Assembly (NCBI GenBank): GCA_965645245.1
Contig: OZ287082.1
Coordinates: 496,001-560,000, forward strand
DNA from: Massalongia carnosa
Lineage: Eukaryota
Direction of reading: 5' to 3'
DNA: 64,000 nucleotides
Shown here: in pieces, positions 2,188-56,529 of the stretch
Layout: each line of letters opens with the position of its first letter
Position numbering within the stretch: position 1 is the stretch's first letter
Made by a program: the position numbers and the translations under genes
The notes under the pieces: generated by a model
The model's input: only the letters and a program-made list of their open reading frames with translations
The model's database searches: none
Told to the model about the DNA's origin: nothing

Positions 2188-4041
2188 TCAAACTATATAT
2201 CCTTCAATGTTACTTAATGGATCCACAGCCAAGCCTAATAAGCCTGAGGAATTAGGCGTCATACTCCCTGCAATAGAGCCCACACGATGAAAAACTGGCA
2301 AGCCAGATGAATGGGGTTGTTTGAATCGAAGCACAAGATGGTAATAGTCGAGTTCACATGTCCTCGCTGAACCAGTGTTATTACCGCGGAACAGAATAAG
2401 TCTTCGATTTGGCCACGGGTATGTATTCTCCTTCCGTGAAAAGACTTGTGCATTAAATCTTCCATCAACGCCTTCTACTTGAAAGAAGATAAAATCATAG
2501 CAGCAATCAGTCAAGCGAGCAAGCTGCTTTCCGAAGCCATTTGGGTTGACATAAGGACTGTCATCTGGTTCCTTTCCAATCACTGTAACCTTCCATGATG
2601 CCCATCGTCCATGAAGGCCGTCTGGAGTGACGAACATCTGCGAGCCTGGGTTTGGCATGGCTCCAGATGTGCCGGCAATGGATAGAGGAGCCCAAGACCA
2701 CGGTTTGGGCATGATAGGCCCGTGGAGACTTGCTAATCTGCCACCTTCCTGGCCCAAATGACGCAGAAGAACTTCCTGTCCCTGCTCCATCGTAGTATCT
2801 AGGCTGGGCCATTCCGCTTTAAAGAGAGGAAAGACTGCGCGAACAAGATCCTTTGATTTGGTAGTCAACCTCTCCCTGGCGAGTGAGCGGACTCTATCTA
2901 ACATTGGCGCTGTCAGAGCCGATACCATTCCATGAAGAGTTTGTATTGCTCCGTATTGCTGCCAATGAAGATCGGGCTGAATCGCGGAGTCTATGAGTGC
3001 GGATAACAGCTCTCCCCCATTGATCTGGCAGTCCCCAAATATGAAGACAAGATCTTGACTTAGGATCGCTTCCTGCATTGTCCATACTCGAGTCATCCAG
3101 TCACACAAGCAAATAGCCATGCATCTTTCGCGGTCACTGCTACCCGCCATGGAGATAAGAAGTCGATCACAAACAACCGTCACCTTTGCGGTTGAGTACA
3201 CCAAGTTCATAGAGTTGATCGACATTACCCTAACCTCCTTCACATTGCTGATCATTGCAATATCCAACCAAACATATTCCAACCCGAATAAATTCGCAAT
3301 AGTGAGTAACATATCAAGAACCCTAGTGCAGATGCCCTTTTCACTATCTCCTTGCCACCCATGATCCCAAACGTGGCTCACTGCCACAAACTCATCTTTG
3401 CCGCACCATTTCAGCTCACCACCAGCACCAATACAGAGAACCTTGCCTGATTGTGCAATACCAGAATTCTCAGCCACACTGACGGGTAAAAAGAAGCAGC
3501 AACCATCATATGACGACCCTTGAAGTGCATAAGTGTTTGTTCCCGGCCGACACTGGTCGCAAACTTTTATATTTTTCGAAACAGTCTTAATCTTCACTGC
3601 CCCATGTAATTTGTACGCATTTATTAACGATGTTGATGTTTGGGGCTGCATCCCGTATCCTTCCATTGCGAGAACCATACGTGCGCGGAGTGGATTACAG
3701 CCAGCAGATTGCAGAGCCTGGACGAGTGGATGAGTCCCCTCAGGGTAAGTACTATCTCGGCCACTCCAGGCCTGGCAAAGTTTATTGACCTTACAGCCGT
3801 GGTCATTGTCTGATACCCATGCGCAAGGGATTGGATGATGATCGCAATCTGGTGACAAATATAGCGGATCTTTTCCAACAGCTGCACGCAAACTTGCAAC
3901 AAGTTCCGGTCCTAAGGATTCGAATAGATCAGACGCGCTCATGGTCGTTTTGAAGACGGGATTAGCTAAGTCTGCATGTTGAAAATCACGCGATGGGAAT
4001 GTAGTTGTGGGTGGTTGGGTGGGGGATGACTGGCTGTCCAA
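2188..4041 (-). CDS. HET-domain (heterokaryon incompatibility-type) protein; true start uncertain
   Basis: FVAVSHVW, YVWLDIAMI, MNLVYSTAKVTVVCD, WMTRVWTMQEAILS, PWSWAP motifs; frame uninterrupted; listed start is TTG, first in-frame ATG ~3942 or an upstream exon. Confidence 0.85.
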   Translation of the reverse strand: MDSQSSPTQPPTTTFPSRDFQHADLANPVFKTTMSASDLFESLGPELVASLRAAVGKDPLYLSPDCDHHPIPCAWVSDNDHGCKVNKLCQAWSGRDSTYPEGTHPLVQALQSAGCNPLRARMVLAMEGYGMQPQTSTSLINAYKLHGAVKIKTVSKNIKVCDQCRPGTNTYALQGSSYDGCCFFLPVSVAENSGIAQSGKVLCIGAGGELKWCGKDEFVAVSHVWDHGWQGDSEKGICTRVLDMLLTIANLFGLEYVWLDIAMISNVKEVRVMSINSMNLVYSTAKVTVVCDRLLISMAGSSDRERCMAICLCDWMTRVWTMQEAILSQDLVFIFGDCQINGGELLSALIDSAIQPDLHWQQYGAIQTLHGMVSALTAPMLDRVRSLARERLTTKSKDLVRAVFPLFKAEWPSLDTTMEQGQEVLLRHLGQEGGRLASLHGPIMPKPWSWAPLSIAGTSGAMPNPGSQMFVTPDGLHGRWASWKVTVIGKEPDDSPYVNPNGFGKQLARLTDCCYDFIFFQVEGVDGRFNAQVFSRKENTYPWPNRRLILFRGNNTGSARTCELDYYHLVLRFKQPHSSGLPVFHRVGSIAGSMTPNSSGLLGLAVDPLSNIEGYIV

Positions 4042-4294: not shown

Positions 4295-5113
4295 AATTTA
4301 CGTCCAGGGAATACCTAAGTATTCCAGACCTCCCGAAGGATATATGGACGTGCTAAGCCAAGGATTTCAAATACAATATCTTGCTCTAAAGAGTGCCAAA
4401 AACGCAGGTGGCTAAAAAGACCCCCTCCAAAGCAAGCCTGGGTCCCTGGTCCCACGGTGTTTCAGTGCTATTGTCAACCTTAGAAAGCATTTCATGCAGC
4501 AATTTGCGTGTAGCTAAAGGGCCTTGTGGCTGTGACCTTCCCCTACAGACGGGATGGACCACCAGAAAAAAGGAAAAGAGGGTGTCCCTCAGGAGTCGCT
4601 CAGATGAGCGTATAGTATGACGATCGAAAGATCAAGGGTGTCTGTGCTACAAGAGCAGTTGGTAGTCAAGGCCAAAGGCCAGCTACCAAAAAGGTATGCA
4701 TAAAGGCGCAATATCGAAAAACCTCTTGAAAAACCGAAAAACCGAGGACCCTTCCCCCTATTTCCCTTCCTCCTCCTACCTCTCTCCCTATCCCCCCCCG
4801 ACCAAGTATAAAATCACCCCCTCATCTGCCGATAGCCCCCTTTGCCTCCTCTAAAACTTGCGTCCCCGCCCTTCATCCTCCTTCGTGGTGTCTGCCAACC
4901 AGGGTATACATATCGTCGTAGGTGTAGGTAATAGAGGCCCAGCTCAGGCAAAGGTAGGTAGTATCGTGATAAGGTAATATACTGCGTAGTCGGAGTTCAT
5001 CGTTCGAGTGGTAGTTGTAGTCGTAGCAAATAGAGGAGAGAAGATTCACTCCTCAACTACCCACGCAACATCCGACACTTCATCCCCGTCACACTGTTCC
5101 TTCTAGTTCCCCC

Positions 5114-5713
5114 TTAATGGACCTCGGCTTGACTAAGCGCAAGAAGCTGGAGGTGCGTCAGCCGGGGGAACTCTCTGCTCTTGACAATCATCCTTCCAAT
5201 AGTATCTAGATCGAGAGTGTAATCCGCACGGACGGCACATGGAGGGTAAGCCAGGCCCAAGAGCGCGAAAAACATGTCTCGAGGATCGGTTGACCTTCTT
5301 TCCGATGAGTAGTCAAACAGGTTGTGAATATCTTGCCGCTCTCCCTTCTGGATATCTTTCATCCCAGCGACCTGTGAGATTCGCTCCTCGACTTTCAGCT
5401 GGTTAATGCACAACACATCTGCCCAAAGCCTCCGCGTGCCGTCGACCCTTCTCAGGCGTCTGAGCCCGTGCTATAAGTTCTCGCGGATAAGAACTTCCAC
5501 CCCGTTCAGCAGGATCGGTTTGCTTGGAGGCTCCTCCCCCCACACGTAGGAGATGCAGTCGTATAGTTCTACGCTATCGAAAGATTCGGTAACGAGGCTG
5601 CAGATAAGAGGGTCGGTGAGAGATGAAGAGGGATCGATAACGAGGAGTCGAAAGGAGAAGTGTTCCATGGGTAAGGACTTGTATTTGAATAATGTTTCTG
5701 ATGCGCTCTCCAT
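5114..5713 (-). pseudogene. HET-6-like HET-domain pseudogene (in-frame TAG at 5471-5473, internal deletion)
   Basis: FRLL...YDCISYVWG...RENL*HGLRRLR...RLWADVLCINQ...QVAGMKDI jumps directly to STDPRDMFFALLGL...ADY; the W..R.W..QE block is absent. Confidence 0.85.
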
Positions 5714-7761: not shown

Positions 7762-7763
7762 TA

Positions 7764-8116
7764 AGTGTCAACGCCTTTACCAGAGCCTCAAGGAGTCGGA
7801 CCGAAGTAAGGCCAGCATGGAACTGTTCGCCGAGAAACGTGCTAGCATGGCTCAGAGCACCCCGAGCACCTCCGCTACAATAACAACCACGACGGCCACC
7901 ACCAAGACCTACGTGCCGCCCCGCCCGACCTCTAACCCATCTACACCAAGGACCACTTACTACATGTCAGACGAGGAAAAGGAGCGACTGACAAGGGAAG
8001 GTCGTTGTTTCTTTTGCAAGGAAACGGGACATTTATCTAGGGACTGCGAAAAGAAGAAGAATCGGCCAGCGAGAATACAGGAGATCGCTGAGGAAGCCGA
8101 TTCGGGAAAAGAATGA
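7764..8116 (+). pseudogene. gag: Gypsy gag C-terminal fragment with CCHC zinc knuckle
   Basis: CFFCKETGHLSRDC; frame open back to the Tc1 end. Confidence 0.85.
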
Positions 8117-11100
8117 CCTCCACCGAAGGCGCGGATGGAGGTGAACCTTTGTTGATTTCATCTAGCTGTTTACCAGGCGATTTGTTTACGGATGAACCTC
8201 TAGTCATACAATGTAGGCTAGGTAACAGCGAAGAAATAAAAGTAATGGGACTGTTGGACACGGGTGCAACAGGACACGCTTTCATTGATGAAACGACTGC
8301 GCGTGAAGTTTGCGAAAAGCTTCAGATTTCCCCTCAGAGACTAACACGACCGAAACCGGTGAAAGGGTTCGATGCTAAAAGAGGTAAAGACATTACTCAT
8401 GCCATCTATCCTACTCTTACCGTGCAAGACCATATGGAAACGGTCGCCCCCCTGTTGATCACCCAACTCGGACAACACAAGATGATTCTCGGAAAACCAT
8501 GGATGAGGAAGCACGGGGTGATCATAGACATGGCCACCGACCAGATAGTCTTTTGGCCCGGACACTGCACGCATTCGGGTATATCGAAGCCACCATCAGA
8601 AAAGAAGATAACGAAGACGACAAAAGAACCCGCTGAACCGAAGAAGGTCATGAAAATCCTGACCAGAACGAATCAAAACGAACCTGGAAAAATCGGGCCA
8701 GAACCGGCAATTTCAACCAAGACGACGTCGAACAAGGGACTATCAGAAGGACTATCAGACTCCGGAATCAAGATTAAACCGACTACCGAGGAAAAGCCGC
8801 TAGAGATGGCGATGATAGGGGCCGCTGCGTACCGATTATTGTCCAAACAAAAGGACGTTGAATTATTTTCCATCTCATTGAAAGACATCTAGTACCAGCT
8901 GAATAAAGAAGACCGTCCCCTTACTGACCCGAAGACCGTAGTTCCCCCAGATTACCATGAATTCCTGGATGTGTTTTCAAAGGCTGCATCCGACACGCTG
9001 GCACCTCACCGCCCCCATGATCATCGAATCATTCTGGAAGGCAGAAAAGATCACGGACACAGCCCTCTCAGAAGCATGTCCCAAAAAGAGCTGGAATTCG
9101 TCAAGAAATACCTGGAAGAGAACCTCCGAAAAGGGTTCATTGAGGCTAGCCACGCAGCTTGTTCGTCCCCAATTCTTTTGGCCAGAAAACCCAATGGAGG
9201 ACTTCGCTTTTGTGTCGACTATAGAAGGCTAAACCAGCTGTCAAAGAAAGACCGCTATCCAATCCCGCTGATCGAGGAAACACTGGAACAGCTGAAGGAA
9301 GCTAAGATCATTTCAAAAATCGACATCCGACAGGCGTTCCACAAGCTCCGAATGGCCATGGAATCTGAAGACCTGACCACGTTCAACTCCCATTTTGGCT
9401 CTTATAAATACAAGGTATTACCGTTTGGACTTTCCGGAGGACCGTCGACCTGGCAGCACTTCATCAATGATGTGTTGTTCGATTATCTGGACAAATTCTG
9501 CACGGCCTACCTGGATGACATTCTAATTTATAGCAAGAACCTGAAAGAGCATCGGGAACACGTGCGGGCCGTTTTGACAAAGCTTCGAGAGGCCGGACTT
9601 CAGGCTGACGTAGACAAATGGGAATTCCATGTGACGGAAACGAAATATCTGGGACTGATCATAGGAGTTGATGGCATTCGCATAGACCCAGCCAAAATCA
9701 AAGCTATTCAGGAATGGGAGACCCCCACCTGCCTACGTGAAGTTCGGTCGTTCATTGGTTTTTGCAATTTCTATCGTCGGTTCATCAGGGTTTTTCAAAA
9801 ATTGCCAAACCATTGAACGCCCATACAAAGAAAGAACGGATATTCGAGTGGACCCCAGCACGTGAAAAGGCTTTCAGGACGTTACAGAAACGGATCGTTG
9901 AAGCCCCAATCCTCATACATTTCGACCGGAACAAGCAGTGCTACTTGGAAACGGACTCTTCGGACCATGTCAATGGAGGTGTTGTCCCAGATAGGAGACG
10001 ACGGAGAACTTCACCCGGTAGCTTTCTTTTCAAAGAACATGAGCCCAGCGGAATGCAACTACGAAATCTATGACAAGGAACTGCTAGCAATCATTCGATG
10101 CTTTGAACAATGGAAGCCGGAACTCGAAAGCACGGAGTTACCAGTGAAAATCTTCACCGACCATCATAGCCTGGAGTATTTTATGACCACGAAGAAACTA
10201 ACTAGACGGCAAGCCCGATGGGCGGAGTTCCTTTCGGAGCTCAATTTCGTCATCACCTACCGGCCTGGAAAGAAAAATGAAAAAGCAGACGCGCTAACCC
10301 GAAGGCCAAACGATAAGCCCCACGACGATGATGATGAAAGGCAGCAGCACCAATTGCAGACGCTACTGCCCCCGGAAAGATTGGAACTTCAGCCCATTGA
10401 AGAAGCGACGGAACCAGAAGAAACGACACGGAACGATGAATCCGACCCCGAACTCCCGACCCTCGACGAAAGAATCAAACAGGAAAACCTCGAAGACGAA
10501 CTCTGCACCCGAATACGAAACGCGATAAAGGAAGGAAACACTGATGACGACTCTCTACCGGACATAAAGAACTGCACCGAGAAGAACGGACTGCTATACA
10601 AACGAAAGGGCTTATGGGTGCCGGACAAGAAAGAGACCATCCTAGAGGTTATTCGGCAAATTCACGACCAAGTGGCGGTAGGGCACCCTGGAATGGCCAG
10701 AACGGTGAATATAATCGGCCGGAACTACTATTGGCCAGGCATGAACAAGGACATACGCCGCTATGTGCGAAATTGCCATGTGTGTCGACGAGCCAAGGCC
10801 CCAAGGGACAAGTATAATAGACTGCTGAAACCGCTACCCATACCAGAAAGACCATGGATGGACATCACCCTAGACTACGTTACCGGCCTCCCGAAGAGCA
10901 ATGGAAATGACGCCATCCTGATGGTAGTAGACCAACTGTCCAAAGAGAGACACTACATCCCATGCACATGTGATGAAGAAGGAACTACGTCCGAGGCCAC
11001 AGCCAAACTCCTAGTGGACAACGTATGGGGCTATCATGGACTCCCAAGCAGCATAGTATCGGACCGGGGCCCTCAATTCACATCAACAGTTTGGAAAGCC

Positions 11101-11940
11101 TGGTGTAAAATCCTTGGAATCACAGCGAAATTGTCCACAGCCTATCATCCAGAAACAGATGGACAAAGTGAAATCGCGAATCAGGAAATGGAACGTCACC
11201 TTCGGAGTTTCGTGAACTATAATCAGGACGACTGGGCGGGCCTTCTTCCAATGGCGGAATTTGCCGCAAACAGCGCACCATCGGCCACCACCGGACTGTC
11301 ACCATTCATGGCCACGAAAGGTTAAGAACCAAGGATGAGTTTCGACCCAATCGAACTGTCGTCAGAATCAACAAGGGAAAGGCTAGCCAATGGAAAAGCC
11401 CGAGCGATTACCGAGGACATGAAGAAAATCTGGGATTTCGTCAAACAAAATATGGGAAAGACCCAAGAAAGGCAAATAACAGCAGCTGACCGACACCGAA
11501 GAGACGTCTCATATGAAGTAGGCGACATGGTATGGTTATCTACTCGAAATATCAAGACAGAACGAACGTCCAATAAATTGGACCATAAGATGATTGGACC
11601 CTATCGAGTCAAGAAGTTAGTAGGGTCATCCTGTCAACTAGAATTGCCACCATCAATGAAAATTCACGATGTCTTCCATACCAGCTTGCTTCGAAAGGCC
11701 TCAGACGACCCACTCCCAGGTCAGATAAACGAGCCACCGCCACCCATAGTCGTAGAAGGTAGCGAAGAATGGGAACTTGATGACATTCTGGACTCACGAA
11801 AGCGGTACCGAAAGGTGCAATACAAGGTCAAATGGAAGGGAATTGACGAGGACCTGACATGGTATGATGCCGAAGGTTCCGAAAATGCAAAAGAAGTGAT
11901 GGAGGACTTCCATCAACGAAACCCAAATAAACCGCGATGA
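8113..11940 (+). pseudogene. pol: Gypsy pol (protease, RT, RNase H, integrase, chromodomain), disrupted
   Basis: LLDTGATG, LRFCVDYRRLN, YLDDILIYS, RNYEIYDKELLA-type RH motif, HHCC, SDRGPQF, GPY, chromodomain YKVKWKG; stops at 8890 and 11323, frameshifts near 9790 and 9975. Confidence 0.93.
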
Positions 11941-12156
11941 TCGCACTAACCGCATCGGTCACTTAATCTCATATTAAGCGGTGATAGGGACCGAAACTCC
12001 CGACGCGCTAAACCTTATCTTGGTTAGAAAGACTATCAAAAAGCGGAGATAACGCGGACATTATCGCGGTCAGGTCACTCGCGATTTAGAGCGGGGTAGT
12101 GTCACGGTTCTACTCGGCACTACTTCGGTAGACCGGAGCGCGTTAACGAGCGTTAC

Positions 12157-12289
12157 CAAAAATTTGAAAATAATTTTCGTTATATCGTTATGGAGGGTTA
12201 TTCATTATAACGAGGTTTTTACCAGAGAAATATATTCGTTATGCCGAGGTTTTCGTTATACGGGACTTCCCTATAGCGGGGTTCGACTG
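12157..12289. mobile_element. Isolated terminus of a pogo/Tigger-type DNA transposon
   Basis: Minus strand reads TA|cagtcgaaccccgctatagg...tataacgaa with repeated ttcgttat subterminal motifs; no partner end seen. Confidence 0.6.
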
Positions 12290-12464
12290 TACCCACACTC
12301 TCTTGTGTGTCATATTATTTCACACGGAAGACGAGGAGATAAAAGGCATCAAATCTTATCTTATCATGCTTCAGGCTAGTGTTGTCAAGGTCATCTCAAT
12401 CGAAACAACTCGAAATACACAAACACATATTCATTGCACTACATGACATTTCCTCGTAGCGGTC

Positions 12465-14651
12465 ATGGCGGCACGAAGAGAATCCGATTTTCAGCGTCTT
12501 GAGGAACGCTTGAGGGAGCTGGAGCGACGCAGGGAAGAAGCTGAGCAGCGCAGGGAAGAAGCCGAGCAGCGCTTACGGGCAACAACGTTCGACGAGTACC
12601 TGGAAGCCTGCCACGTGCACATTTCGAAACGACTTTCCATTCAAGTAAATAAGAGTATAACCACGACGGGCGCACTTACCAGCGTGACCGGCAAGGTATG
12701 TCCCAGCAAACTCCGGCCTTGGGAGGGCTTCAACGGAGCCCAAGCATCGTTGTTGATCGATGCGCGAAAACGCTTTCACTCGGACTGCACGCCTCATCTC
12801 CGGCGATTTGCCACGGTGCAGCATTTGCAAGAGCTTGGCGCCGACCTCTGTGACCGCAAATATGCCAGCGAATCAGATCTCGCATCCTACGAGCGACTCG
12901 CAGTGGAGGGGCCCACGGCAAAGATTATGGAGCAACTGAGCAAGATGACAGAACTCGATGGGTTAGGATTTGATAACCATGCGAATGCCCTCAATGACCA
13001 AGGAGAAGAGGCGCTGGAGCATGATATGATGGAAGACCTGCAGAATCCGAGAATTCAGGGCAACGCTGACACGCGCCATCCTTCAGAAGCGCGAAAACGC
13101 GGTCGACCGGATCAATATTGCATCTACAAGACGGCCGGAAGTCACAAACTGCTGTTGGTGGCCGAATACAAAGCGGCTCACAAACTTTCAGTGCAAGACC
13201 TGCAAACACGTCTGCGGCCCATGAACTTAGCTAACGATGTCATCAACGTGTCCATATTTGCGACGGAGCAGGAACAGAAAGATCATAAAGCGGACTGGCG
13301 CATAGGATGCGCGATCACGCAGGCTTACTCGTATATGATCGAGAACGGGTTGGAGTACAGTTACATCACGACAGGAGTTGCACTCGTCTTCCTCTGGGTG
13401 CGAGCCAAAAACCCAGCCACAGTGTATTATCACTTGGCCATCCCGAACGAGGACGTGGACAGGAATGGCTACGACTGGCAACGCACTGCTGTTGCTCAGG
13501 TGCTTGGCCTGTGTCTCATGGCGTTTCAGTCGGAGCAGTTCACCGAGAGGAACCAGGGATGGCGGAACAAAATGATGGATGAGCTGGAAAGATGGGAAAA
13601 GAATGCCGGATTTTCGAGTCAATCGGACGAAGATCGAGAACGTGTCGAAACGCCTAGTTCGCTCTTCAAGGCCAACGGTGGACTCAAGATTTCGAAGAAT
13701 TCCGATCGAACTCCGATCAAGCTTCGGCTGCGAGGAAGGAAGCGCTGCGAGCCCCCTAAGATCGATCCTGCTCCTGAAGAATCATCGTCGGATTTATCCG
13801 AGACAGAGTCCTCCATGAAGAATCCAAAAATCGGACAAGTGCGGCAGCTGTCAAATCGATCCAATGAGGAAGAGCGACAGTCTCTGTGCAAGGATCAGGA
13901 TAAAGGGAAGCACCAAAGACAACGGTACTGCAGTCAGAAGTGCTTGCTCGGGATCCGGCAGAAATCCACGCTAGACGAGCGCTGTCCAAACGTGTCCAAG
14001 CATCGGAGAATGAGCGATCGCCACACCATCAGCCTGCCAGAGTTCACGGCGTTGGTTAACAGGCAGCTGGACCGTACCCTTGACCGGAACTGCGAACCCC
14101 TAGGCCAACGAGGTGCTCGAGGGGCATTGTTCCGAATCCGATTGACCTCGCACGGCTATGTCTTCGTGGCCAAAGGCACCATTCGCGCATTCGTATCCAA
14201 CTTGCGACATGAAGGGCGAGTGTACCGCCATCTGGAACATCTTCAAGGCGCGGCCGTTCCCGTCTATCTTGGCAACATTGACCTCGCCAAACCCTACCAT
14301 CTCGACGTCGAGGTCCGAATCGTGCACATGCTCCTCATGTCCTGGGGAGGAGACGTGGCCGAATCTTACGAGACGGTCAAAACAAGACCATCCTTCCAAG
14401 CAGAACTCCGCCGCACTGTCGCCGAAGTGACACTCGCAGGAATCAATCAAGCAGACCTGCGCCCGCCCAACGTTCTCTGGAACCGCGAACTGGATCGCCT
14501 CATGCTGATCGATTTCGAGCGGGCGATGTTTCTGAATCGCGATCGTCGTTGTCCTCGTCGTGGTTTTGATTTTCGGGCTATGATAGATGAGGATAATGAT
14601 AACGGGACGTTGCGGGATATTCTATCACCGGCGAACGCGCGGCTAGAGTGA
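12465..14651 (+). CDS. Spok: Spok-family (spore-killer-like) protein: coiled coil + PD-(D/E)xK nuclease + Cys cluster + kinase-like domain
   Basis: Intronless 728-aa ORF; RREEAEQ heptad repeats; RPDQ...EYK nuclease motif; C-x3-C-x13-C-x5-H cluster; GARGALF, VAKG, DLRPPN, IDFE kinase motifs. Confidence 0.8.
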   Translation: MAARRESDFQRLEERLRELERRREEAEQRREEAEQRLRATTFDEYLEACHVHISKRLSIQVNKSITTTGALTSVTGKVCPSKLRPWEGFNGAQASLLIDARKRFHSDCTPHLRRFATVQHLQELGADLCDRKYASESDLASYERLAVEGPTAKIMEQLSKMTELDGLGFDNHANALNDQGEEALEHDMMEDLQNPRIQGNADTRHPSEARKRGRPDQYCIYKTAGSHKLLLVAEYKAAHKLSVQDLQTRLRPMNLANDVINVSIFATEQEQKDHKADWRIGCAITQAYSYMIENGLEYSYITTGVALVFLWVRAKNPATVYYHLAIPNEDVDRNGYDWQRTAVAQVLGLCLMAFQSEQFTERNQGWRNKMMDELERWEKNAGFSSQSDEDRERVETPSSLFKANGGLKISKNSDRTPIKLRLRGRKRCEPPKIDPAPEESSSDLSETESSMKNPKIGQVRQLSNRSNEEERQSLCKDQDKGKHQRQRYCSQKCLLGIRQKSTLDERCPNVSKHRRMSDRHTISLPEFTALVNRQLDRTLDRNCEPLGQRGARGALFRIRLTSHGYVFVAKGTIRAFVSNLRHEGRVYRHLEHLQGAAVPVYLGNIDLAKPYHLDVEVRIVHMLLMSWGGDVAESYETVKTRPSFQAELRRTVAEVTLAGINQADLRPPNVLWNRELDRLMLIDFERAMFLNRDRRCPRRGFDFRAMIDEDNDNGTLRDILSPANARLE

Positions 14652-15032
14652 AATGGTAGTTGAAGAATATGATGAGTTGGGGATGGGAATTAAAATAGGT
14701 TTGCGGAAACGTGAGCTGCGGAATTGACTTTAATTCTCTTTCAATAACAGTATGATATTATCTTTATGCAAAATTAAACATCGTGTTCTATATCACGAAA
14801 TATTATCTCATGCATAACATTATTCAAGACTTCTCATATCGATAATCATGAGAGATAGTTTTATAGATTCGGATTTATTATATTGGTTTATAAAGTATAA
14901 CATAAAATAAATCAAAAAAGCACTTGATATCTCATCAACACTATTTCTACTTCTCATTTCATTTAAATATTAAATAATTCATTTTCACGTAAATTACGAA
15001 AACTAAGGAAGAATTATATCGCGATAAAAGTT

Positions 15033-15445
15033 TACGTCGCGCAACGGGTCGGGTTGGGTTAGGTTTTTGTCACGGATTACAACGCTCTAACCTCAGGCAA
15101 CACATGACGTAGTGCTATTCACCTTATCTAACCGAAAACGGATTTAGCACTGCTTGTAGCGATATTATTAACACGAGTGGTATGAGCAGTTCAACGACGG
15201 TGATGAAAACCTGCATTAGGCTTAGCACGGGTATGAGTGTTTATTAACCGGCGATCTGTACATAGCTTTCTTTCTTCATCTTACTAGTTTTCGTACATAG
15301 TCCATATTAGATTTCTATCTAGGTCGACGTGCTACAGTTTTAATTAGTCGAACACGACCGGTACTGGGTTGGGAAATCTGTAGATACGACGCGCAACGGG
15401 TCGGGTTTCTCTACTGAAAACCCAACCCGTTTGTGGCGAACCCTA
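15033..15445. mobile_element. Possible hAT-type element terminus
   Basis: Minus strand begins TAGGGTTCGCCAC exactly where the Clr5 ORF stops; repeated cgcgcaacgggtcgggtt motifs at ~15038 and ~15390. Confidence 0.45.
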
Positions 15446-22661: not shown

Positions 22662-23338
22662 TGTTGAATGTTCAACTTCTACCAGCATTGCCTAGCCGAT
22701 AGATTAGATAATATCAGATCTAATCTAAGCGCATAGAGGCTCGGATAAACTATTATCATCTCGCTTAGCAGAGGTGACCAAGATAAAAGGAACAGATTGC
22801 TCTGCACTCCGTAGCAACTCTGCATCCTTAACATCATGGTCATACAGGCCCCTATCTTTACATAGTCATATAGCCATAGTCATAGACCTATTCAACAGGT
22901 TATGAGCCCGGAAGGGCGCTATCGATCATACAGGAATCGAAGCAATTCTTATCCGCAGCATCACGATGCACAATCATTAGCTGAGCATCATTATCCTTTC
23001 TCGAAAAGAACTAGATGGACATGTTGCAAAGACTAAATCTCTACTTGTTTACAGACCTGAATCAGGCGGGATTCGCACCCGCAAGTCTAGCTAGTTGAAC
23101 AGCTTCGTGAAAGCACATCATGACAACCTCTCAATCAGATAGAGACGTTTAACAACAACGCCACCTGATCCAGCGTTCCCTACCTACAAAGGGTTATCAG
23201 AAAGAGCATGGAAATCATCTACATTATAAGCAGAGAGGCTCTTTGCCAGACTACAAGCATCAGAAGACATTCTCTTCATATCAGACCATCAGAATGCTCT
23301 TATGCCCGAATATCTGAGAGGCACTCCGGAGGATGACG

Positions 23339-24045
23339 TTGACCCAGAGGCAGACTCCAGTGGACCAATTCCATTGTTTGACCTCTGCTGCATCACCATC
23401 CATTTGACTTTTGACCCAGAGGCAGACTCCAGTGGACTAGCTCCAAGGTTTGACCTCTGCTGCATCATCACTCATTTGACATTGACCTAGAGACAGACTC
23501 CAGTGGACCAGTTCCAATGAGTGACCTCTGCTGCATCATTATTCATTTGACTTTGACCCAGAGACAGAACTCCAGTGGACCAGTTCCAATGAGTGACCTC
23601 TGCTGCATCATCATTCATTTGACTTTGACCCAGAGACAGAACTCCAGTAGACCAGTTCCAACGATTGACCTCTGCTGCATCATCATTCATTTGACTTTGA
23701 CCCAGGAACAGACCTTTTCACTGAGTTTTGTTCAAAAACCGCGCAGCGCGGCCTTGACCACTCTTGAAACTCTGATTTCTGCTGAATCATCAATTGACTG
23801 ACGTTGACCCAAGGGCAGACTTCAATCTGACTTTTGCTGCATCACCACTCAACTTACTTTGACCCAGAGACCGACCATCTAAACTATCTTTCAGGGTCCG
23901 ATTTCTGCTGAATCATCAAATGACTGACGTTGACCCAAGGGCAGACTTCATTCTGACTTTTGCTGCATCACCACTCAACATACTTTGATCCAGAGACAGA
24001 CTTCGGAAATTCAGTTCCAAGGTTTGATCCTTGCTGCATCATTCA
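23339..24045 (+). repeat. ~72-bp tandem array plus derived units in Copia A 5' UTR
   Basis: ttgacc(c/t)aga at 23339, 23411, 23482, 23553, 23625 and a variant at 23697, then two longer variant units. Confidence 0.9.
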
Positions 24046-29545: not shown

Positions 29546-30590
29546 ATGACGTCCATCACTCTTCCAACTCGATCTCGAGGTCCCAATATCCGTTGGAAAG
29601 ATGAAGACACTCAACTAGTCATTCAATGGCTTTGTATCAGAGACGATCAGGGTATTTCCGTCAATCTCAATCTCTATCAAAAAGGAAACAAGGTAGAAGC
29701 TTGTAGAAGAATGCTGTTGGAGTCTGGACTGAGTGCTCAACGACCCGATGTATCCAAGGAAAAAGCCAGAGATAAAGTCGCCCAAATGATTAAATCTTTC
29801 AAAGAAACCAGGGCCCTCGCGGATCAGACGGGATGGGGGGTAGATCCAACAAAACATGAGGTAGTGGCGGAAAACACGCGGGGAATAACCATCAAGGAGG
29901 TCTTGATTAAGAAATGCCCTTTCTACTACGAGTTGGAAGAGATTATGGGAGATTTTCCCACTATCACTCCACCCTATATAATGGAGTCCGAAAGACCTGG
30001 TACCGCTGAAGGAAAAGAAGATGCGCAAGATACGGAAGTTGAAAACATCGATGAGGAGGACTATGAAAAACGGGCTCGAGACGGTGATAGCGACATGAAT
30101 AGGCAGTTATCTGATGCTGGTCATTGGCTAGAAAGATGATATCTCAAAATCAAAGACTGATTTGGTTAAACGTGCCAAAGAAAAGTATGCACTCAGGAAT
30201 AAAAAAGTCACACCTGACTCTGGTACTGAACAAATTACACCTACACCTGGTCGTGGCCATCGTAAACGACCTTTGGAGATAGATTCGGACAGTGATGACA
30301 CGCGATCAAAAGTCATTACCAAACGAGGATTCAGACGGGAAAAAGTCCGATCCGTGGCAGACGCCTTGGTTGAGGTGCAGATCATGAAGTCCAATGACTT
30401 CAGTAAACACTTTGAATTCGAACAAAGTCAACTTCAAAAGCGGTTTGATGCTGAAACCAGTCAAAGAGATCAACATCATAAAGAGATTTGTCTCAAACAG
30501 GAAGAAATGATTGCCATAAGTAGAATGCAACACGAGGAAAAGATGATGAGGCTACAAATTGAGTTGGAGAAGACTCAAAAGAAGTGGTAA
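29546..30590 (+). CDS. Harbinger accessory Myb/SANT-like DNA-binding protein (frame change near 30130; intron or frameshift unresolved)
   Basis: W..EDT.LVIQWL...DQTGWG...CPFYYELEEIMG, acidic linker, C-terminal coiled coil; lies inside the TIRs. Confidence 0.7.
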
Positions 30591-30673
30591 GTTGATTTAA
30601 ACTTCGATTTTGAACTAGCTAACCTTTTTTTAAAGATGCCTACTTCTTAATCAGGAAGGAAGATAAAGAATGA

Positions 30674-30959
30674 TAAGAAAGGGGAGAGGTGAATAGAAAA
30701 GGATGACGGAGGGGGTAAATAAGAAAGGGGAGAGGTGAATAGAAAAGGATGACGGAGGGGGTAAATAAGAAAGGGGAGAGGTGAATAGAAAAGGATGACG
30801 GAGGGGGTAAATAAGAAAGGGGAGAGGTGAATAGAAAAGGATGACGGAGGGGGTAAATAAGAAAGGGGAGAGGTGAATAGAAAAGGATGACGGAGGGGGT
30901 AAATAAGAAAGGGGAGAGGTGAATAGAAAAGGATGACGGAGGGGGTAAATAAGAAAGGG
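30674..30959. repeat. 46-bp purine-rich minisatellite, 6 perfect units + partial
   Basis: taagaaaggggagaggtgaatagaaaaggatgacggagggggtaaa at 46-bp period. Confidence 0.95.
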
Positions 30960-31163
30960 TAGGATAATAAGAAGGGAATTACTATCAACACCCCCCTTTT
31001 AATACCAGTACCACCCTCTTTATACCAGTAAACCCCCCTCTTGATACCAGTATTCCTCTCTTGATATCAGAACCCCCATTTTCTCAAACAAGCTACATGC
31101 CCCCTTTCAAAGGAGTTAGCGGTGCCAGGGCCCAACCTGAGAAATGAAGCTAATGAGGTAAGT

Positions 31164-31604
31164 TGTCATGAAATAAAGTTTGAGTTAAAACCTAATTGAT
31201 TACCCCGAACCGCCAAGCGGCGATCGAGGTAAAAGCCACCTGAAAGCCTATTCAGATTCATCCTCGGTATGAGTCTGAATAAACCCCTTACTCCACTCCA
31301 CCAATCTCCTCACTCCACTATACCCTCTTATCGCTAGAACGATCACATCCACTGGCCCACTTATCGCTCTACCTTATCGCCGCCACCATCACCAAAATCT
31401 CTCATCTAGGGTGAAGGTAAAACATGAGAAAGAAGGGGCCGGCTCAGGTATAAAAAGAGGACATATCCAGTAGATAGTTGACTCCTCGTCCGACGTCTTG
31501 TATAGCAAACCACCTCCTAGCTATAGCCTCATTAATGAAGACATCTTGATCATCCAATCCAATTCCTAGGAACATTAGTTCAATTCCCAACCCAGTCCTT
31601 GACA
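31164..31604 (+). mobile_element. Solo LTR (441 bp) inside the Harbinger, TAAGT TSD
   Basis: tgtca...tgaca; taagt at 31159-31163 and 31605-31609; TATA-like tataaaa at ~31449. Confidence 0.9.
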
Positions 31605-31975
31605 TAAGTTCAATGAACCTCAGGTAAGTTCAAGGACAGGACAGAATCAGGATTCAACTTTAAAATGGGCAACTACGGATAGGACCGAGACTCCTAAAGC
31701 TAATAGGGCTAGAACTCGGTCACGGGGAAAGGGGATAAATAGCCTCCCACCCACGAAGCTTCGAAACTTCGTCTAGAAATTTTGTAGGAAAACCTAGTCA
31801 ATAGAAATTCTCAGAACCAGCCCCAACAGGAGAGGAGGGGGCGGTAATAAGAAGGGGGGGGAGCGACCAATTAAGACTAGGAAATCAGACGACATCAAAT
31901 CAAATGAATGCTAGTCTTTCAAATGGAAGAAATGAAATGACAACTAGGGTTGTATGAGACCAATCACTAGTCATC

Positions 31976-33184
31976 TTAACTGCCGATGACCAATCGTTTA
32001 ACCTGATCTCTTGTGATCAGACCTTCAGTCATTTGACTTCTGATTAGCTGTTTCAATTCTTCGTCATGTGCCTCTTCTTCTTCTGTCCACCATCCTTCTT
32101 CTTCATTCCATTCATCTCGAATGTCTTGAAGAAGGTTATGAAGCACCACACATGCAGTTATCCATTTGATGACGTAGGTATAGCTTTTCTTGTTCCTGAC
32201 TCGAATTCTCAGCCCGGTCAGACTTTTCCATCTTCTTTTCAGAATTCCAAATGCATGTTCTATGTCTATACGAATTCGCGACAGTCTTTTGTTGAATCGA
32301 CGAATATCCGGATCTCTAGTATGCGGTGCCTTGTATGGAGTCACCAGATACGTGGAATTCGTATAGGCACTGTCACCCAATAGATATTGACCGGGAGAGA
32401 AATAAAAGGCGGGATTCCGGCACAAATCACCTGCGGCGAATATACGCTGATCATGCTGAGAGTTTGGCCATCCACTGAGAAAGTAAATAAACCTTTTATT
32501 CGAGTCACATACGGCACACAAATCCATCGCGTATCTCTTTTTTCTGTTGAAGAATAGCTCGCCTTCGTATTTACCACCTGGTTTTGTATGTAGAACAACG
32601 TCGGTACCATCCACCTTGCCAACGACCCCGATAAATCCATCTTGTCTCTGATTATTGGTCAAATTTTCTCTTATCCTAGCTCTTTCACTGGGCCATTGAA
32701 CGAAGTCATTCTTTAGCCGACACAGTGCTTCTATCACCCGTTTGGTGCAGTTAAAAACATGCCCTTCTGATATCCCCCACATGGTAGCTGTAGGAAGGAA
32801 TCCACTGGCACTACCGTCATGTCCCATTCTAAAAAGAGCGTATTTTAGCTGATGTTCCACGGAGGCTTGAGGGACACGAGATTTATTGAAAAAGACGGGA
32901 TCATTTCGAATTAAGCCGAGAACATGATCAAAGGAAAAGCGATTCATGCGTAGCAGACTTCGGAATCGATCATCCGAAAGGTTGGGAAGGACAGCTGACG
33001 CCCAATTGGATTTGGGAACGAATAATCGGGGAGTTAAATAACGCTGTTCTTGAATTCCTTCTGCTAGAAGTAGGAAATTCAATGCTTCATCCGATTCATC
33101 CGATGATGATGCAGTAGCATCATGTAGAAAGTAAAGACAACGCAAATCTCTTTCCAGCTGCACTTTAAAGCTGACACGAGGCAT
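31976..33184 (-). CDS. PIF/Harbinger DDE transposase (HARBI1-like), intact
   Basis: VGKVDGT, NRKKRY, GWPNSQHD, LLGDSAY, RIDIEHAFGILKRRW, ACVVLHN. Confidence 0.93.
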   Translation of the reverse strand: MPRVSFKVQLERDLRCLYFLHDATASSSDESDEALNFLLLAEGIQEQRYLTPRLFVPKSNWASAVLPNLSDDRFRSLLRMNRFSFDHVLGLIRNDPVFFNKSRVPQASVEHQLKYALFRMGHDGSASGFLPTATMWGISEGHVFNCTKRVIEALCRLKNDFVQWPSERARIRENLTNNQRQDGFIGVVGKVDGTDVVLHTKPGGKYEGELFFNRKKRYAMDLCAVCDSNKRFIYFLSGWPNSQHDQRIFAAGDLCRNPAFYFSPGQYLLGDSAYTNSTYLVTPYKAPHTRDPDIRRFNKRLSRIRIDIEHAFGILKRRWKSLTGLRIRVRNKKSYTYVIKWITACVVLHNLLQDIRDEWNEEEGWWTEEEEAHDEELKQLIRSQMTEGLITRDQVKRLVIGS

Positions 33185-36300: not shown

Positions 36301-39237
36301 CTTCTAAGTCTTTTTAACTGTGGAAACTTCTGCAAACAGGTATCTAGCCAATGATGAGTGTTCTTTCTCTTGACACATTAAGAGAAGGTGCAGTTCCCTG
36401 ATGGGGCTCGACCTCTCGAGTCAGGTGTGCTGATATGAAGTGCCTTGGTGATTTTCATGTTGACATAATAAGCAATAATGGTCTTCATTGCTTCCGACAG
36501 GTTTGTGGTTTCGTATGTTCAATCTCGTCGAAGTTGGGCTATCAATGGGGAATAGACGTCTGGTGTTACCCAGCATCATTCATTTAAGCATAAACTCCAC
36601 GGTATGCACATCCACTTTGGCCTTGTCGTCTAGCATTCCTTTAATCTTGTTTAAAGCGCTCTCGTAATATGCACAGTATAGACTGGTCGTCTCGAAGTCG
36701 GTCATCTTCTTGGAACTAACCTTCAGAATGATGTCGCTGATGCTCATTGGTGCTATATCTTGGAATCAATCCTTCAGGATTTTCCACATTTCTGCCACAT
36801 TCTTGTTGTCGATGAGGCTGTAATGGCACTCCGCAACTAATCCGTGAATGATTCCTATAGCCTTGGTCATCTCGGCCTTCTGTCTATTTTTCTAGTCACG
36901 CAGTTCTTTTACCAAGATGCTGACTGAAAGACCTTTGGCGTCGAAGCCTGCTTGTATTAAACCTTCCTTGATGGTTTCAGCGGTGATTTCTGATCGATTC
37001 TCCAGAATGGCTCCTTCGCAGTTGTTCTTGAGCAGAATGCCATTCGTATAGCTTGCCCATGCCGAATATCTTTCGGCTTTCTCCAAAAGATGTGACGTAT
37101 CTATGATAGACATAATGGGAGAATGGGGAGCAATTGAACAAGGCGAGAAACTTAGTAGTGACTGAAAGAATGTGGATCTGTGACCTTTCTTATAGACAAG
37201 GAAAAAACAGTCCCTCCTTAGCCAGTGTCTACTCTGATGTCTCAACAGAGAAACCTGTTTGCTTAACATGCTTGTTTGCCATGATGAGAATTTCAACTTC
37301 GGCTTTTTCAAGGGTCCAATTGACCAATAGCAAATTGAGCGCAGGGTTATTCCAATTTGATTTAACCGGCCTTAGGCCGGTTAAATAATAAGAGGCAACT
37401 GCCGCACAATCTCATCTAGTGCCTTAAGGAGGCATAATTGCCAAAAAGAAAGGTCTTTGTGCCTTCGATCAATGAGTTTACTAAGCTCTTTGATGTCCGA
37501 GGGATTTTGTATTTTTTGCGTGTCCAGAACTCAACTACGGGTGAAACTGACGCTTTGATGATTTTTGAACCAATGGGGCGCTCAGGGCCAGCAATATACT
37601 TTTTTTGCCTTCGACCATCGAGCTTAGCGAGCTCTTTTGGTGTCCGAGGACTTCGGTGCCTTCGACCATCGAGCTTAGCGAGCTCTTTGGTGTCCGAGGA
37701 CTTCGGTGCCTTCGACCATCGAGCTTAGCGGGATCTTTGGTGTCCGAGGACTTTAGCGCCTTCGACCATCGAGCTTAGCAAGCTCTTTGGTGTCCGAGGA
37801 CTTGAGCGCCTTCGACCATCGAGCTTAGCAAGCTCTTTGGTGTCCGAGGACTTGGGTGCCTTCGACCATCGAGCTTAGCAGCTCTTTGGTGTCCGAGGAC
37901 TTGGGTGCCTTCGACCATCGAGCTTAGCAGCTCTTTGGTGTCCGAGGACTTGGGTGCCTTCGACCATCGAGCGTAGCAAGCTCTTCTGGTGTCCGAGGAC
38001 TTGGGTGCCTTCGACCATCGAGCGTAGCAAGCTCTTCTGGTGTCCGAGGACTTGAGTGCCTTCGACCATCGAGCGTAGCAAGCTCTTCTGGTGTCCGAGG
38101 ACTTGAGTGCCTTCGACCATCGAGCGTAGCAAGCTCTTCTGGTGTCCGAGGACTTGAGTGCCTTCGACCATCGAGCGTAGCAAGCTCTTCTGGTGTCCGA
38201 GGACTTGGGTGCCTTCGACCATCGAGCATAGCAAGCTCTTTTGGTGTCCGAGGACTTGAGTGCCTTCGACCATCGAGCATAGCAAGCTCTTCTGGTGTCC
38301 GAGGACTTGGGTGCCTTCGACCATCGAGCATAGCAAGCTCTTTTGGTGTCCGAGGGCTTGAGTGCCTTCGACCATCGGGCTAAGCAAGCTCTTTGGTGTC
38401 CGAAGACTTGAGTGCCTTCGACCATCGAGCTTAGCAAGCTCTTTGGTGTCCGAGGACTTGAGTGCCTTCGACCATCGAGCTTAGCAAGCTCTTTGGTGTC
38501 CGAGGACTTGGGTGCCTTCGACCATCGAGCATTGCAAGCTCTTTTGGTGTCCGAGGACTTGAGTGCCTTCGACCATCGAGCTTAGCAAGCTCTTTGGTGT
38601 CCGAGGGCTTGAGTGCCTTCGACCATCGGGCTTAGCAAGCTCTTTGGTGTCCGAGGCCTTGATTGCCTTCGACCATCGAGCTTAGCAAGCTCTTTGGTGT
38701 CGGAGGGCTTCGGTGTAGTACGATCAATGTGTTCATGCTCTTTCTAACACGCAGTTTTTGTGCTTCTGACAAGAAATCGCTGTGTACAGAAGAGAGAACT
38801 GATTGATGTGATTTAAGGGATCGTTTCTAAAGACACAGAAAGATTTTAGTCATGTGTCTACGATTCATTGAATAGGAACGATGCTTAGCTGATTGCACTG
38901 CGATGCTGCGGATTAAAAGCTTCGATTCGTTTAAATCGATAGCACCCTTCCGGGCTCATAACCTGTTGAAATAGGTATATGACTATGGCTATATGGCTAT
39001 GTAATAATAAAGGTATGTATGACCGTGATGTTAAGGATGAAGAGTTGCTAGGCAGCAATCTTTTCCTATTACTGGTCACCCCCTTCTAAGCGAGGTGATC
39101 TTATCTTATCTTGGGACTAAGCCTAATGCGGCATCTACGGTTTCCGTAGATGATCTGTCCATCTAGGGCAGCCGTAGGTGCTATGTTCATCGTACTGATA
39201 GGTGTTCATTGTGCTGGTAGGAATTGGATATTCAACA
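33391..39237 (-). mobile_element. Ty1/Copia element B1, internally deleted and decayed
   Basis: 274-bp LTRs 33391-33664 and 38964-39237 (3 differences), TATAT TSD, PBS; fragmented gag/pol homologous to B2. Confidence 0.95.
37606..38712 (-). repeat. 49-51-bp tandem array (~22 units) in Copia B1 5' UTR
   Basis: ccttcgaccatcgagcttagcaagctctttggtgtccgaggacttgagtg units. Confidence 0.95.
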
Positions 39238-40030: not shown

Positions 40031-40669
40031 TGTCAAATATATAAGGGTCAAAATGCATAATCAGGAGAATTGGGTAGATGTTGGGTGTATTGTGGAGGAT
40101 GCAGAAAAGTGGGAATCTATCTAAGGGGGGAGGCAACGTGTTGAATATCCAATACCTACCAGCACAATGAACACCTATCAGTACGATGAACATAGCACCT
40201 ACGGCTGCCCTAGATGGACAGATCATCTACGGAAACCGTAGATGCCGCATTAGGCTTAGTCCTATGATAAGATAAGATCACCTCGCTTAGAAGGGGGTGA
40301 CCAGTAATAGGAAAAGATTGCTGCCTAGCAACTCTTCATCCTTAATATCACGGTCATACATACCTTTATTATTACATAGCCATATAGCCATAGTCATATA
40401 CTTATTTCAACAGGTTATGAGCCCGGAAGGGTGCTATCGATTTAAAACGAATCGAAGCTTTTAATCCGCAGCATCGCAGTGCAATTAGCTAAGCATCGTT
40501 CCTATTCAATGAATCGTAGACACATGACTAAAATCTTTCTGTGTCTTTAGAAACGATCCCTCATATCACATCAATCAGTTCTCTCTTCTGTACACAGCGA
40601 TTTCTTGTCAGAAGCACAAAAACTGCGTGTTAGAAAGAGCATGGACACATTGATCGTACTACACCCAAG

Positions 40670-40965
40670 CCCTCGGACACCAAAGAGCTTGCTAAGCTCG
40701 ATGGTCGAAGGCACCCAAGTCCTCGGACACCAAAGAGCTTGCTAAGCTTGATGGTCGAAGGCAATCAAGTCCTCGGACACCAAAGAGCTTGCTAAGCTCG
40801 ATGGTCGAAGGCAATCAAGTCCTCGGACACCAAAGAGCTTGCTAAGCTCGATGGTCGAAGGCAGTCAAGTCCTCGGACACCAAAGAGCTTGCTAAGCTCG
40901 ATGGTCGAAGGCACCCAAGTCCTCGGACACCAAAAGAGCTCGCTAAGCTCGATGGTCGATGGCAA
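40670..40965 (+). repeat. 50-bp tandem array (6 units) in Copia B2 5' UTR
   Basis: cctcggacacc at 40671, 40721, 40771, 40821, 40871, 40921. Confidence 0.95.
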
Positions 40966-56399: not shown

Positions 56400-56529
56400 C
56401 TAGAGGAGTTCGATATTTAGGAATCTTGGGTTACGAAATCCTTGTCTTGATCTGAGTCCTCTAACAGTTACGCTATGATAGCAGCCTCTATCGATTGGGT
56501 TGTTCGGGGGAAGTACCGCTCGAGCTTGA

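What the first reader, a model, noticed from the sequence alone, without database searches (positions are those of the whole stretch)
12465..14651. Intact Spok-like toxin-antidote gene: candidate meiotic driver
Seen: intronless 728-aa ORF with heptad coiled-coil repeats (RREEAEQ x2), PD...ExK nuclease motif (~13107-13172), C-x3-C-x13-C-x5-H-x6-H cluster (~13929) and kinase-like C-terminus (DLRPPN, DFE). Established: Podospora SPOK proteins have this order and similar size, with the nuclease needed for killing and the Cys cluster/kinase for resistance. Inference: the key residues are retained while neighbours decay, so this may be an active single-gene spore killer in a new host. The catalytic-loop His is replaced (NQAD).
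Basis: partly seen in the sequence, partly recalled or inferred. Interest (0 to 1): 0.78.

Follow-up and report, generated by a model that had tools for sequence, protein, structure and literature searches.

The report
Intact Spok-family toxin-antidote gene
This is an intact member of a widespread fungal family of single-gene poison-antidote genes, in a transposon-rich region of a probably self-fertile fungus; the family is known, and whether this copy kills spores is untested.

Summary
In detail: an intronless 728-aa ORF at 12465-14651 with a heptad coil, PD-(D/E)xK nuclease, Cys/His cluster and kinase-like end. It is a Spok-family protein (Pfam SPOK2_N; folds match type I/IIG restriction nucleases and kinases). 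It lies in its own subclade, 30-34% identical to proxies for the tested Podospora and Fusarium killers. The His-to-Gln change in the catalytic loop is common (42 of 195 rows) and not a defect. The genome holds 18 Spok-like loci, 9 with full-length frames. Four near-identical copies lie on this contig, and only the window copy keeps both an open frame and all motifs. All folded domains are under purifying selection (dN/dS 0.16-0.19). Against a pure meiotic-driver reading: the genome has both mating-type genes at one locus (self-fertile layout), its repeats show no RIP, and 4 of 6 Fusarium homologues with intact motifs were inactive in yeast. Best reading: a selfish DNA-damaging toxin-antidote gene kept mainly by addiction, driving only in rare outcrosses. 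Three paralogues carry one-sided lesions that look like natural antidote-only and toxin-only alleles. Killing, expression and segregation are untested. New member of a known kind.

The parts
12465..14651 (+). Spok-family ORF, 728 aa, intronless (copy A)
   Evidence: PF27653 SPOK2_N precomputed
12465..12578 (+). N-terminal coiled coil with a 21-nt heptad repeat; copy B has 63 nt more, copy E fewer
   Evidence: helix 2-37 in the model
12579..12992 (+). Domain 1 (aa 39-176), folds together with the nuclease
   Evidence: model of aa 38-382, pLDDT 89.8, pTM 0.88; dN/dS 0.18 against copy E
13095..13604 (+). PD-(D/E)xK nuclease domain: PD 13107-13112, EYK 13164-13172 (K236), QxxxY 13320-13334
   Evidence: BpuSI Z 10.5, DrdV Z 8.3, HsdR 3h1t Z 7.8
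13605..13919 (+). Disordered linker (aa 381-485)
   Evidence: pLDDT < 50; dN/dS 0.40
13929..14024 (+). Cys/His cluster C-x3-C-x13-C-x5-H-x6-H
   Evidence: 194-195 of 195 rows
14085..14534 (+). Kinase-like domain: K570, E583, catalytic loop NQADLRPPN (D664), DFE
   Evidence: Foldseek best hit Rio2 kinase, E 2.3e-6
12293..12464 (+). 5' flank, shared with copies C and D and, from 12335, with copy B
14652..14882 (+). 3' flank; homology to copies B and D ends at 14881/14882
12141..12292 (.). End of a multi-copy DNA transposon (pogo/Tigger-like label is recalled from its terminus)
7763..12140 (+). Ty3/gypsy chromovirus-type element, split into several frames; its 3' LTR is cut off at 12140
   Evidence: loose ends at 12140
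15027..15445 (.). Abundant short repeat with a solo LTR (15068-15336) inside; right edge of the 7.2-kb duplication shared with copy C
2188..3942 (-). Neighbouring HET-domain gene, 584 aa (context, not part of the Spok gene)

Best explanation
An intact Spok-family single-gene toxin-antidote element. The N-terminal half is a restriction-type nuclease that damages chromosomal DNA; the Cys cluster and kinase neutralise it in nuclei that carry the gene (domains shown here, activities inferred from SPOK1-3). It spreads as small duplications in transposon-rich DNA. Because the host looks self-fertile, it is kept mostly by addiction: a nucleus that loses the region, or meets it on hyphal fusion, is killed. 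Meiotic spore killing would be limited to rare outcrosses (inferred).
For: SPOK2_N on P0001 and on all 120 listed hits. Nuclease fold hits include V. vulnificus HsdR, the best HHpred hit for SPOK3; kinase fold. All residues equivalent to SPOK3 K240, C493/C497/C511 and D667 are kept. dN/dS is 0.16-0.19 in the folded domains against 0.40-0.45 in the linkers (A vs E), and 0.28 for A vs B, p = 0.0007. Birth and death of copies: 18 loci, 9 full-length, four copies 96-99% alike on this contig, variable coil repeat, as described for Spoks. One-sided lesions in 3 of 9 open paralogues. Activity is reported in separate branches: Podospora, F. poae, F. oxysporum, and a 33-34% identical homologue killed in Podospora. 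Vegetative killing stabilises chromosomes in F. oxysporum. MAT1-1-1 and a MAT1-2-1-like gene lie together between SLA2 and APN2; selfing hinders invasion of spore killers.
Against: No activity, expression or segregation data. Only 30-34% identical to proxies of tested killers, in a separate clade; deep branches are weak (SH-aLRT 75). 4 of 6 motif-intact Fusarium homologues were inactive in yeast, though one of these was later functional in its own host. Purifying selection fits any conserved function, and A vs E averages over a long branch. C16 was not shown to be dispensable, and no presence/absence polymorphism was seen. With several cross-protecting copies, addiction to one copy is weaker. 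A vs C is not informative (4 synonymous, 9 non-synonymous changes, p = 0.51).
Confidence: 0.5

Rival explanations
1. A classical meiotic driver like Podospora Spok1-4: its main effect is to kill non-carrier ascospores in heterozygous crosses.
For: Same domain order, size and key residues as SPOK3; recent duplication to new sites; homothallic fungi can outcross (own knowledge); copy B looks like a resistance-only allele of the kind known from Podospora strain A.
Against: Homothallic MAT layout; the model predicts that selfing hinders invasion; no RIP signature in 4 transposon pairs, which fits rare sex or absent RIP; no naive strain was identified.
Confidence: 0.22
2. An inactive, silent or antidote-only copy, carried passively in transposon-mediated duplications; it looks intact because it is young.
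For: Its edges abut transposon ends; many neighbouring transposon frames are open too, so an open frame means little where RIP is absent; 9 of 18 loci lack a full-length frame; 4 of 6 tested Fusarium homologues were inactive in yeast.
Against: The nuclease domain is as constrained as the kinase (0.16 vs 0.19), and constraint persists between the young copies A and B. A contig from another study matches A without a difference over 13110-13787.
Confidence: 0.18
3. A host-serving cell-death or non-self-recognition effector, working with neighbouring HET and NLR-type genes rather than selfishly.
For: HET genes at 2188-3942 and just upstream of the window, and NACHT-ankyrin and dynamin-like genes, lie in the same region of C16. 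The authors of PMC12693581 name this alternative, though they find it unlikely.
Against: No fixed neighbour: the copies share only 2.5-7 kb with ragged ends. Spok2 deletion has no phenotype in Podospora. High pseudogene turnover.
Confidence: 0.1

Closest known systems
Podospora SPOK1-4 (Grognet 2014, PMC4022471; Vogan 2019, PMC6660238)
   Same: Size, intronless coding region, coil with variable repeat, PD-(D/E)xK + QxxxY nuclease, Cys/His cluster, kinase-like end; transposon-rich setting; intact, disarmed and broken copies side by side.
   Different: Separate clade, 30-33% identical to the Asp-Glu-type proxies (no direct comparison was possible); loop Q-x-D-L-R rather than Asp-Glu; last Cys-cluster spacer x6 rather than x7; no Starship captain found on this contig; homothallic layout, no RIP signature.
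Fusarium FuSpoks (Sandell 2025, PMC12693581; Puebla Planas 2026, bioRxiv 10.64898/2026.10.04.756499)
   Same: Many copies per genome, recent near-identical expansions, repeat-rich location, proposed action in vegetative cells; 34% identity to F. poae P0160, whose N-terminus matches the F. poae group holding FuSpok2.
   Different: Different subclade; accessory status of C16 unknown; activity untested.
Type I / IIG restriction endonuclease domains (HsdR, BpuSI, DrdV)
   Same: Fold of aa 38-382: Z 10.5, rmsd 3.6, 149 aligned for BpuSI; QxxxY motif.
   Different: No methyltransferase or helicase; protection is assigned to a fused kinase; 10-17% identity.
Bacterial post-segregational killing (type II toxin-antitoxin)
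   Same: Works-like analogy: loss of the gene exposes the cell to a DNA toxin.
   Different: One polypeptide carries both roles; no homology was tested or claimed.

Membership tests
Spok protein family | SPOK2_N domain (PF27653) | tested here: met
   Precomputed on P0001, named SPOK2_N. The session's own Pfam copy gave 0 families; I infer that it lacks this model.
Spok protein family | N-terminal coiled coil with variable repeat number | tested here: met
Spok protein family | PD-(D/E)xK nuclease with catalytic Lys and QxxxY | tested here: met
   D216, E234, K236, Q286, Y290; fold
Spok protein family | C-x3-C-x13-C-x5-H-x7-H cluster | tested here: met
   Present with x6 as the last spacer; this spacer varies among homologues
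Spok protein family | Kinase-like domain with catalytic Asp | tested here: met
   K570, E583, D664, N669, D683; Foldseek
Spok protein family | Full-length homology to SPOK1-4 themselves | tested here: inconclusive
   No Podospora sequence among the listed hits. Proxy P0265: 33% over 699 columns, E 1e-93.
Podospora-like Spok clade (Vogan clades I/II) | Asp-Glu catalytic loop and placement in that clade | tested here: not met
   The loop is Asp-Leu; P0001 lies outside the Asp-Glu clade. Assigning that clade to Podospora is an inference.
Functional toxin-antidote Spok | Nuclease-dependent toxicity relieved by the kinase/Cys region | not testable with these tools
   Needs expression assays; only indirect support from selection
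Meiotic driver (spore killer) | Biased transmission in heterozygous asci | not testable with these tools
   No crosses; homothallic layout
Starship cargo (Spok block) | DUF3435 captain and element ends around the gene | tested here: inconclusive

The most novel reading that the evidence does not exclude
In a self-fertile, RIP-free, probably lichen-associated fungus, Spok paralogues form an addiction network that needs no meiosis. Copy A is the armed member of its subfamily. Copy B (QxxxY Tyr to Asp) and the C13 copy (PD Asp to Asn) are natural antidote-only genes. The C19:1.43 Mb copy, which has lost the Cys cluster in frame but kept its nuclease, is a natural toxin-only gene that makes its 97-98% identical sisters on C1 and C5 essential. 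The genome would then hold ready-made separation-of-function alleles for the open question of how one SPOK protein is both poison and antidote.
Probability: 0.17. Interest if true: 0.62.

Novelty: new member of a known kind. Interest (0 to 1): 0.32.

Why it matters
Spok-like genes are common in filamentous ascomycetes, so one more intact copy is ordinary. Activity has been tested only in a few Podospora and Fusarium genes, all Sordariomycetes (papers read here). This copy sits in an untested subclade whose named members are lichen-forming Lecanoromycetes. A positive assay would show that toxin-antidote activity spans the family and persists where meiotic drive has little room. The paralogues with one-sided lesions give cheap tests of cross-resistance and of how poison and antidote are separated.

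Tried and rejected
Direct comparison with SPOK1-4: none among the listed hits of three searches (120 of 197, 120 of 411 and 72 of 72 listed), and the supplement alignment is cut short. Pfam scan of P0001: 0 families. PDB sequence search: only weak p38 kinase hits, E 0.17-0.4. Foldseek of the N-terminal model: nothing at E <= 0.001. Expression: no RNA holder listed; no evidence either way. Presence/absence: runs X9 and X10 lacked the whole stretch, transposons included, so they do not hold this fungus and are uninformative. Own mobile unit: A, B and D share a 3' edge at 14881/2, but D's edge is the start of a Mutator-like element, the 5' edges differ, and I saw no shared terminal repeat, target duplication or poly(A). 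A second subfamily also has ragged ends. The nearby TAGGG repeat has 109 matches genome-wide, so it is not specific. His-to-Gln as a kinase defect: rejected. The Atlas did not separate MAT1-2-1 from other HMG genes (best score 0.84), and a motif search in papers found nothing. Whether the kinase domain docks on the nuclease domain: no verdict. Literature on Spoks in lichen fungi: none seen in searches; PMC13486527 has no 'spok' and the hits in PMC13535494 are a place name. Earlier scan findings were not available.

Full report
1. Observation. The ORF at 12465-14651 (+) gives 728 aa without a stop. QxxxY (13320-13334), Lys570 and Glu583 are present too. In an alignment of 195 homologues (full-length rows of 600-1000 aa, about a quarter of those, and five own paralogues), D216 is kept in 187 rows, K236 in 189, Q286 in 195, each Cys in 194, D664 in 193 and D683 in 192. 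At the catalytic-loop His position 146 rows have His and 42 have Gln, so NQAD is a common variant. The window is mostly transposons. Some are split, but several frames are open, so an open frame here is weak evidence of function.

2. Family. P0001 and all 120 listed hits (of 197) carry PF27653, named SPOK2_N. The full-length model (mean pLDDT 70.9) has ordered N- and C-terminal halves and a disordered linker at aa 381-485. Foldseek matches the C-terminal part to kinases (Rio2, E 2.3e-6). A model of aa 38-382 (pLDDT 89.8) matches BpuSI (Z 10.5, rmsd 3.6, 149 aligned), a mitoribosomal protein (Z 9.0), DrdV (Z 8.3) and V. vulnificus HsdR (Z 7.8). That HsdR was the best HHpred hit for SPOK3 (PMC6660238). 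Foldseek alone gave nothing significant for this model.

3. Position in the family. No Podospora protein appeared among the listed hits. SPOK2 has Asp707-Glu708 in its catalytic loop (PMC4022471). Eleven Hypocreales, Verticillium and Polytolypa-type rows have H-G-D-E, one of them unnamed, and Polytolypa is in Vogan's clade II. I take them as the Podospora-like clade. This is an inference, partly guided by recall: the table gives no locus, and Polytolypa has two homologues in my set. P0001 is 30-33% identical to four of these rows and 34% to F. poae P0160, whose N-terminus matches the F. poae group that holds the toxic FuSpok2. In a 55-row tree P0001 lies in a separate 14-row clade (SH-aLRT 98); the deepest forks are weak (75). 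The 4 named members of that clade are Xylographa, Xanthocarpia, Icmadophila (Lecanoromycetes) and cf. Caloplaca; that they form lichens is my own knowledge. One of 6 runs holding the stretch or part of it is labelled lichen metagenome. The host is probably lichen-associated; I did not identify it.

4. Copies in the genome. The 29 matches group into 18 loci on 12 of 25 contigs. Nine have a full-length open frame; the other 9 are split, stopped or partial and were not all checked for introns. Four copies on C16 are 96-99% alike. A is the window copy. B (C16:310 kb, 749 aa) is open but has Asp at the QxxxY Tyr, the only such row of 195. C (C16:362 kb) is interrupted by an 890-bp LTR element with identical 119-bp LTRs and a 5-bp target duplication. 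D (C16:859 kb) has four stops, a 1-bp deletion and the same Tyr change. E (C19:164 kb) is 67-69% identical and intact. The C13 copy has Asn for the PD Asp. The C19:1.43 Mb copy lacks about 219 nt in frame, including the three Cys and the first His, and is 97-98% identical to intact copies on C1 and C5. So 3 of 9 open copies have a lesion on one side only. In SPOK3, nuclease mutants resist without killing, and Cys-cluster mutants are toxic unless wild type is present. A natural resistance-only Spok2 allele carries Tyr343Cys plus a two-residue insertion. The parallel is suggestive but untested, and the deletion could be an assembly error.

5. Selection. NG86 estimates for A vs E are 0.18 (domain 1), 0.16 (nuclease) and 0.19 (Cys + kinase), against 0.45 and 0.40 in the linkers, at dS 0.7-0.9. 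A vs B has 16 synonymous and 15 non-synonymous changes (dN/dS 0.28, Fisher p = 0.0007). A vs C (0.68, p = 0.51) and A vs D (0.58, p = 0.06) show no clear constraint. Both halves are maintained, as a toxin-antidote needs, but any conserved function would give this.

6. Spread. A and C share a 7.2-kb segment (8264-15443, about 99%). B and D share only the gene with short flanks and end at 14881/2. D's edge is the start of a Mutator-like element, and the other edges mostly abut transposon ends. I saw no shared terminal repeat, target duplication or poly(A). A second subfamily has ragged 3-5 kb units. None of 69 listed captain matches is on C16 (capped search). Transposon-mediated small duplication is the simplest account. 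Of 108 long ORFs in 330 kb of C16, I scanned 30 that did not look like plain transposon frames; they include HET, NACHT-ankyrin, dynamin-like and APH genes, typical of fast-evolving compartments (own knowledge). Of 4 runs laid, 2 held the stretch. Depth over the ORF exceeds that over the HET flank several-fold in both, which fits several copies but is not a copy number. X5, from another study than X4, has a 678-nt contig identical to A across the QxxxY codon and the site where C is interrupted. No contig spans the whole ORF.

7. Opportunity for meiotic drive. On C10, between SLA2 and an APN2-like gene, lie an alpha-box gene and, about 2 kb away, an HMG-box gene with an intron inside the box. 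The latter has two apparent introns, and its KKKH and P-x-E-K/R-K-R-R motifs start 17 residues apart, as described for Aspergillus MAT1-2-1 (PMC6231087). I read it as MAT1-2-1; the Atlas was not decisive. Both genes at one locus is the homothallic layout. A model predicts that selfing hinders invasion by spore killers (bioRxiv 10.1101/2020.04.06.026989). Four transposon pairs show transition:transversion counts of 44:36, 62:48, 46:27 and 18:18, with no general CpA excess (10 of 18 in the smallest pair); a fifth pair did not align. RIP has therefore not acted on them. Cytosine methyltransferase genes are present; I did not type them.

8. Mechanism. Shown here: domains, motifs, folds, constraint, copy turnover and MAT layout. 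From papers: killing needs the nuclease Lys and resistance needs the kinase Asp and the Cys cluster; SPOK1 disrupts DNA in E. coli and yeast (PMC9972908); 2 of 6 Fusarium homologues were toxic in yeast; FOXG_14774, negative in yeast, reduces chromosome loss and helps in competition through hyphal fusion in its own host. Inferred: copy A is a working toxin-antidote gene kept mainly by vegetative addiction (0.5). Rivals: mainly a meiotic driver (0.22), inert or antidote-only passenger (0.18), host-serving effector (0.10). How the kinase neutralises the nuclease is open.

9. Novelty. Spok-like genes occur in all major Pezizomycotina classes but two, with up to 11 per genome and many pseudogenes. 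Multi-copy genomes and antidote-only alleles are already discussed. This is a new member of a known family. I saw no paper on Spoks in lichen fungi in searches; the library lacks most subscription journals. Papers seen: PMC6660238 (outline, sections 9, 17-19, 22, 24, one supplement table), PMC12693581 (outline, parts 1-2 of section 14, section 18, supplement passages with sequences cut), PMC4022471 (passages, sections 12 and 14), PMC9972908 (first fifth), bioRxiv 2026.10.04.756499 (outline, sections 7, 9, 11), bioRxiv 2020.04.06.026989 (outline, section 34), and passages of PMC8092012, PMC6231087, PMC13535494, PMC13486527 and PMC11905480. The uncut FuSpok alignment and the bioRxiv supplements could bear on the clade assignments.

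10. Verdict. Observation confirmed; interpretation partly supported. Interest 0.32. The most novel reading, a meiosis-independent addiction network with natural antidote-only and toxin-only copies, has probability about 0.17 and interest 0.62 if true.

Noticed in passing
G000:C10:1,285,000-1,298,000 (L080, L081): MAT locus with a MAT1-2-1-like HMG gene and MAT1-1-1 side by side between SLA2 and APN2: homothallic layout. Unexpected if the host were a lecanoromycete, which I recall as heterothallic.
   Followed up: partly
G000:C19:1,429,860-1,432,120 (L018): Open Spok-like frame (753 aa) with an in-frame deletion of the Cys cluster and an intact nuclease; 97-98% identical to intact copies on C1 and C5. 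Candidate toxin-only allele, or an assembly error.
   Followed up: partly
G000:C13:417,700-420,100 (L008) and C16:310,550-312,800 (L002): Open Spok-like frames with nuclease-side changes (PD Asp to Asn; QxxxY Tyr to Asp) and intact kinase motifs: candidate antidote-only copies.
   Followed up: partly
G000:C16:363,000-363,900 (L035): 890-bp non-coding LTR element (TRIM-like) with identical 119-bp LTRs and a 5-bp target duplication inserted in copy C; very recent.
   Followed up: yes
G000, many contigs: About 20 DUF3435 Starship captain loci, some in near-identical sets (C11/C13/C19; two on C7; two on C17), suggesting recent Starship activity; none listed on C16.
   Followed up: no
window and C16 flanks: Near-identical copia, gypsy and Tc1 copies without a RIP signature, although cytosine methyltransferase genes are present.
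   Followed up: partly
window 2188-3942, about 5100-5710, and L043:4466-6427: Cluster of HET-domain genes: two open frames and one remnant with an in-frame stop (the remnant was labelled by eye, not scanned).
   Followed up: no
homologue set: Gln in place of the catalytic-loop His occurs in 42 of 195 rows; all 5 with a named organism are lichen-forming fungi, in two parts of the tree.
   Followed up: partly
window 37606-38710, 40662-40964, 23334-24042, 56525-56851: Long tandem arrays (units of 50-51, 72, 126 and 27 nt), some inside copia LTR regions.
   Followed up: no
window 29546-33184: Myb/SANT-like ORF and DDE_Tnp_4 ORF facing each other: a PIF/Harbinger-like transposon layout (label recalled).
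   Followed up: no
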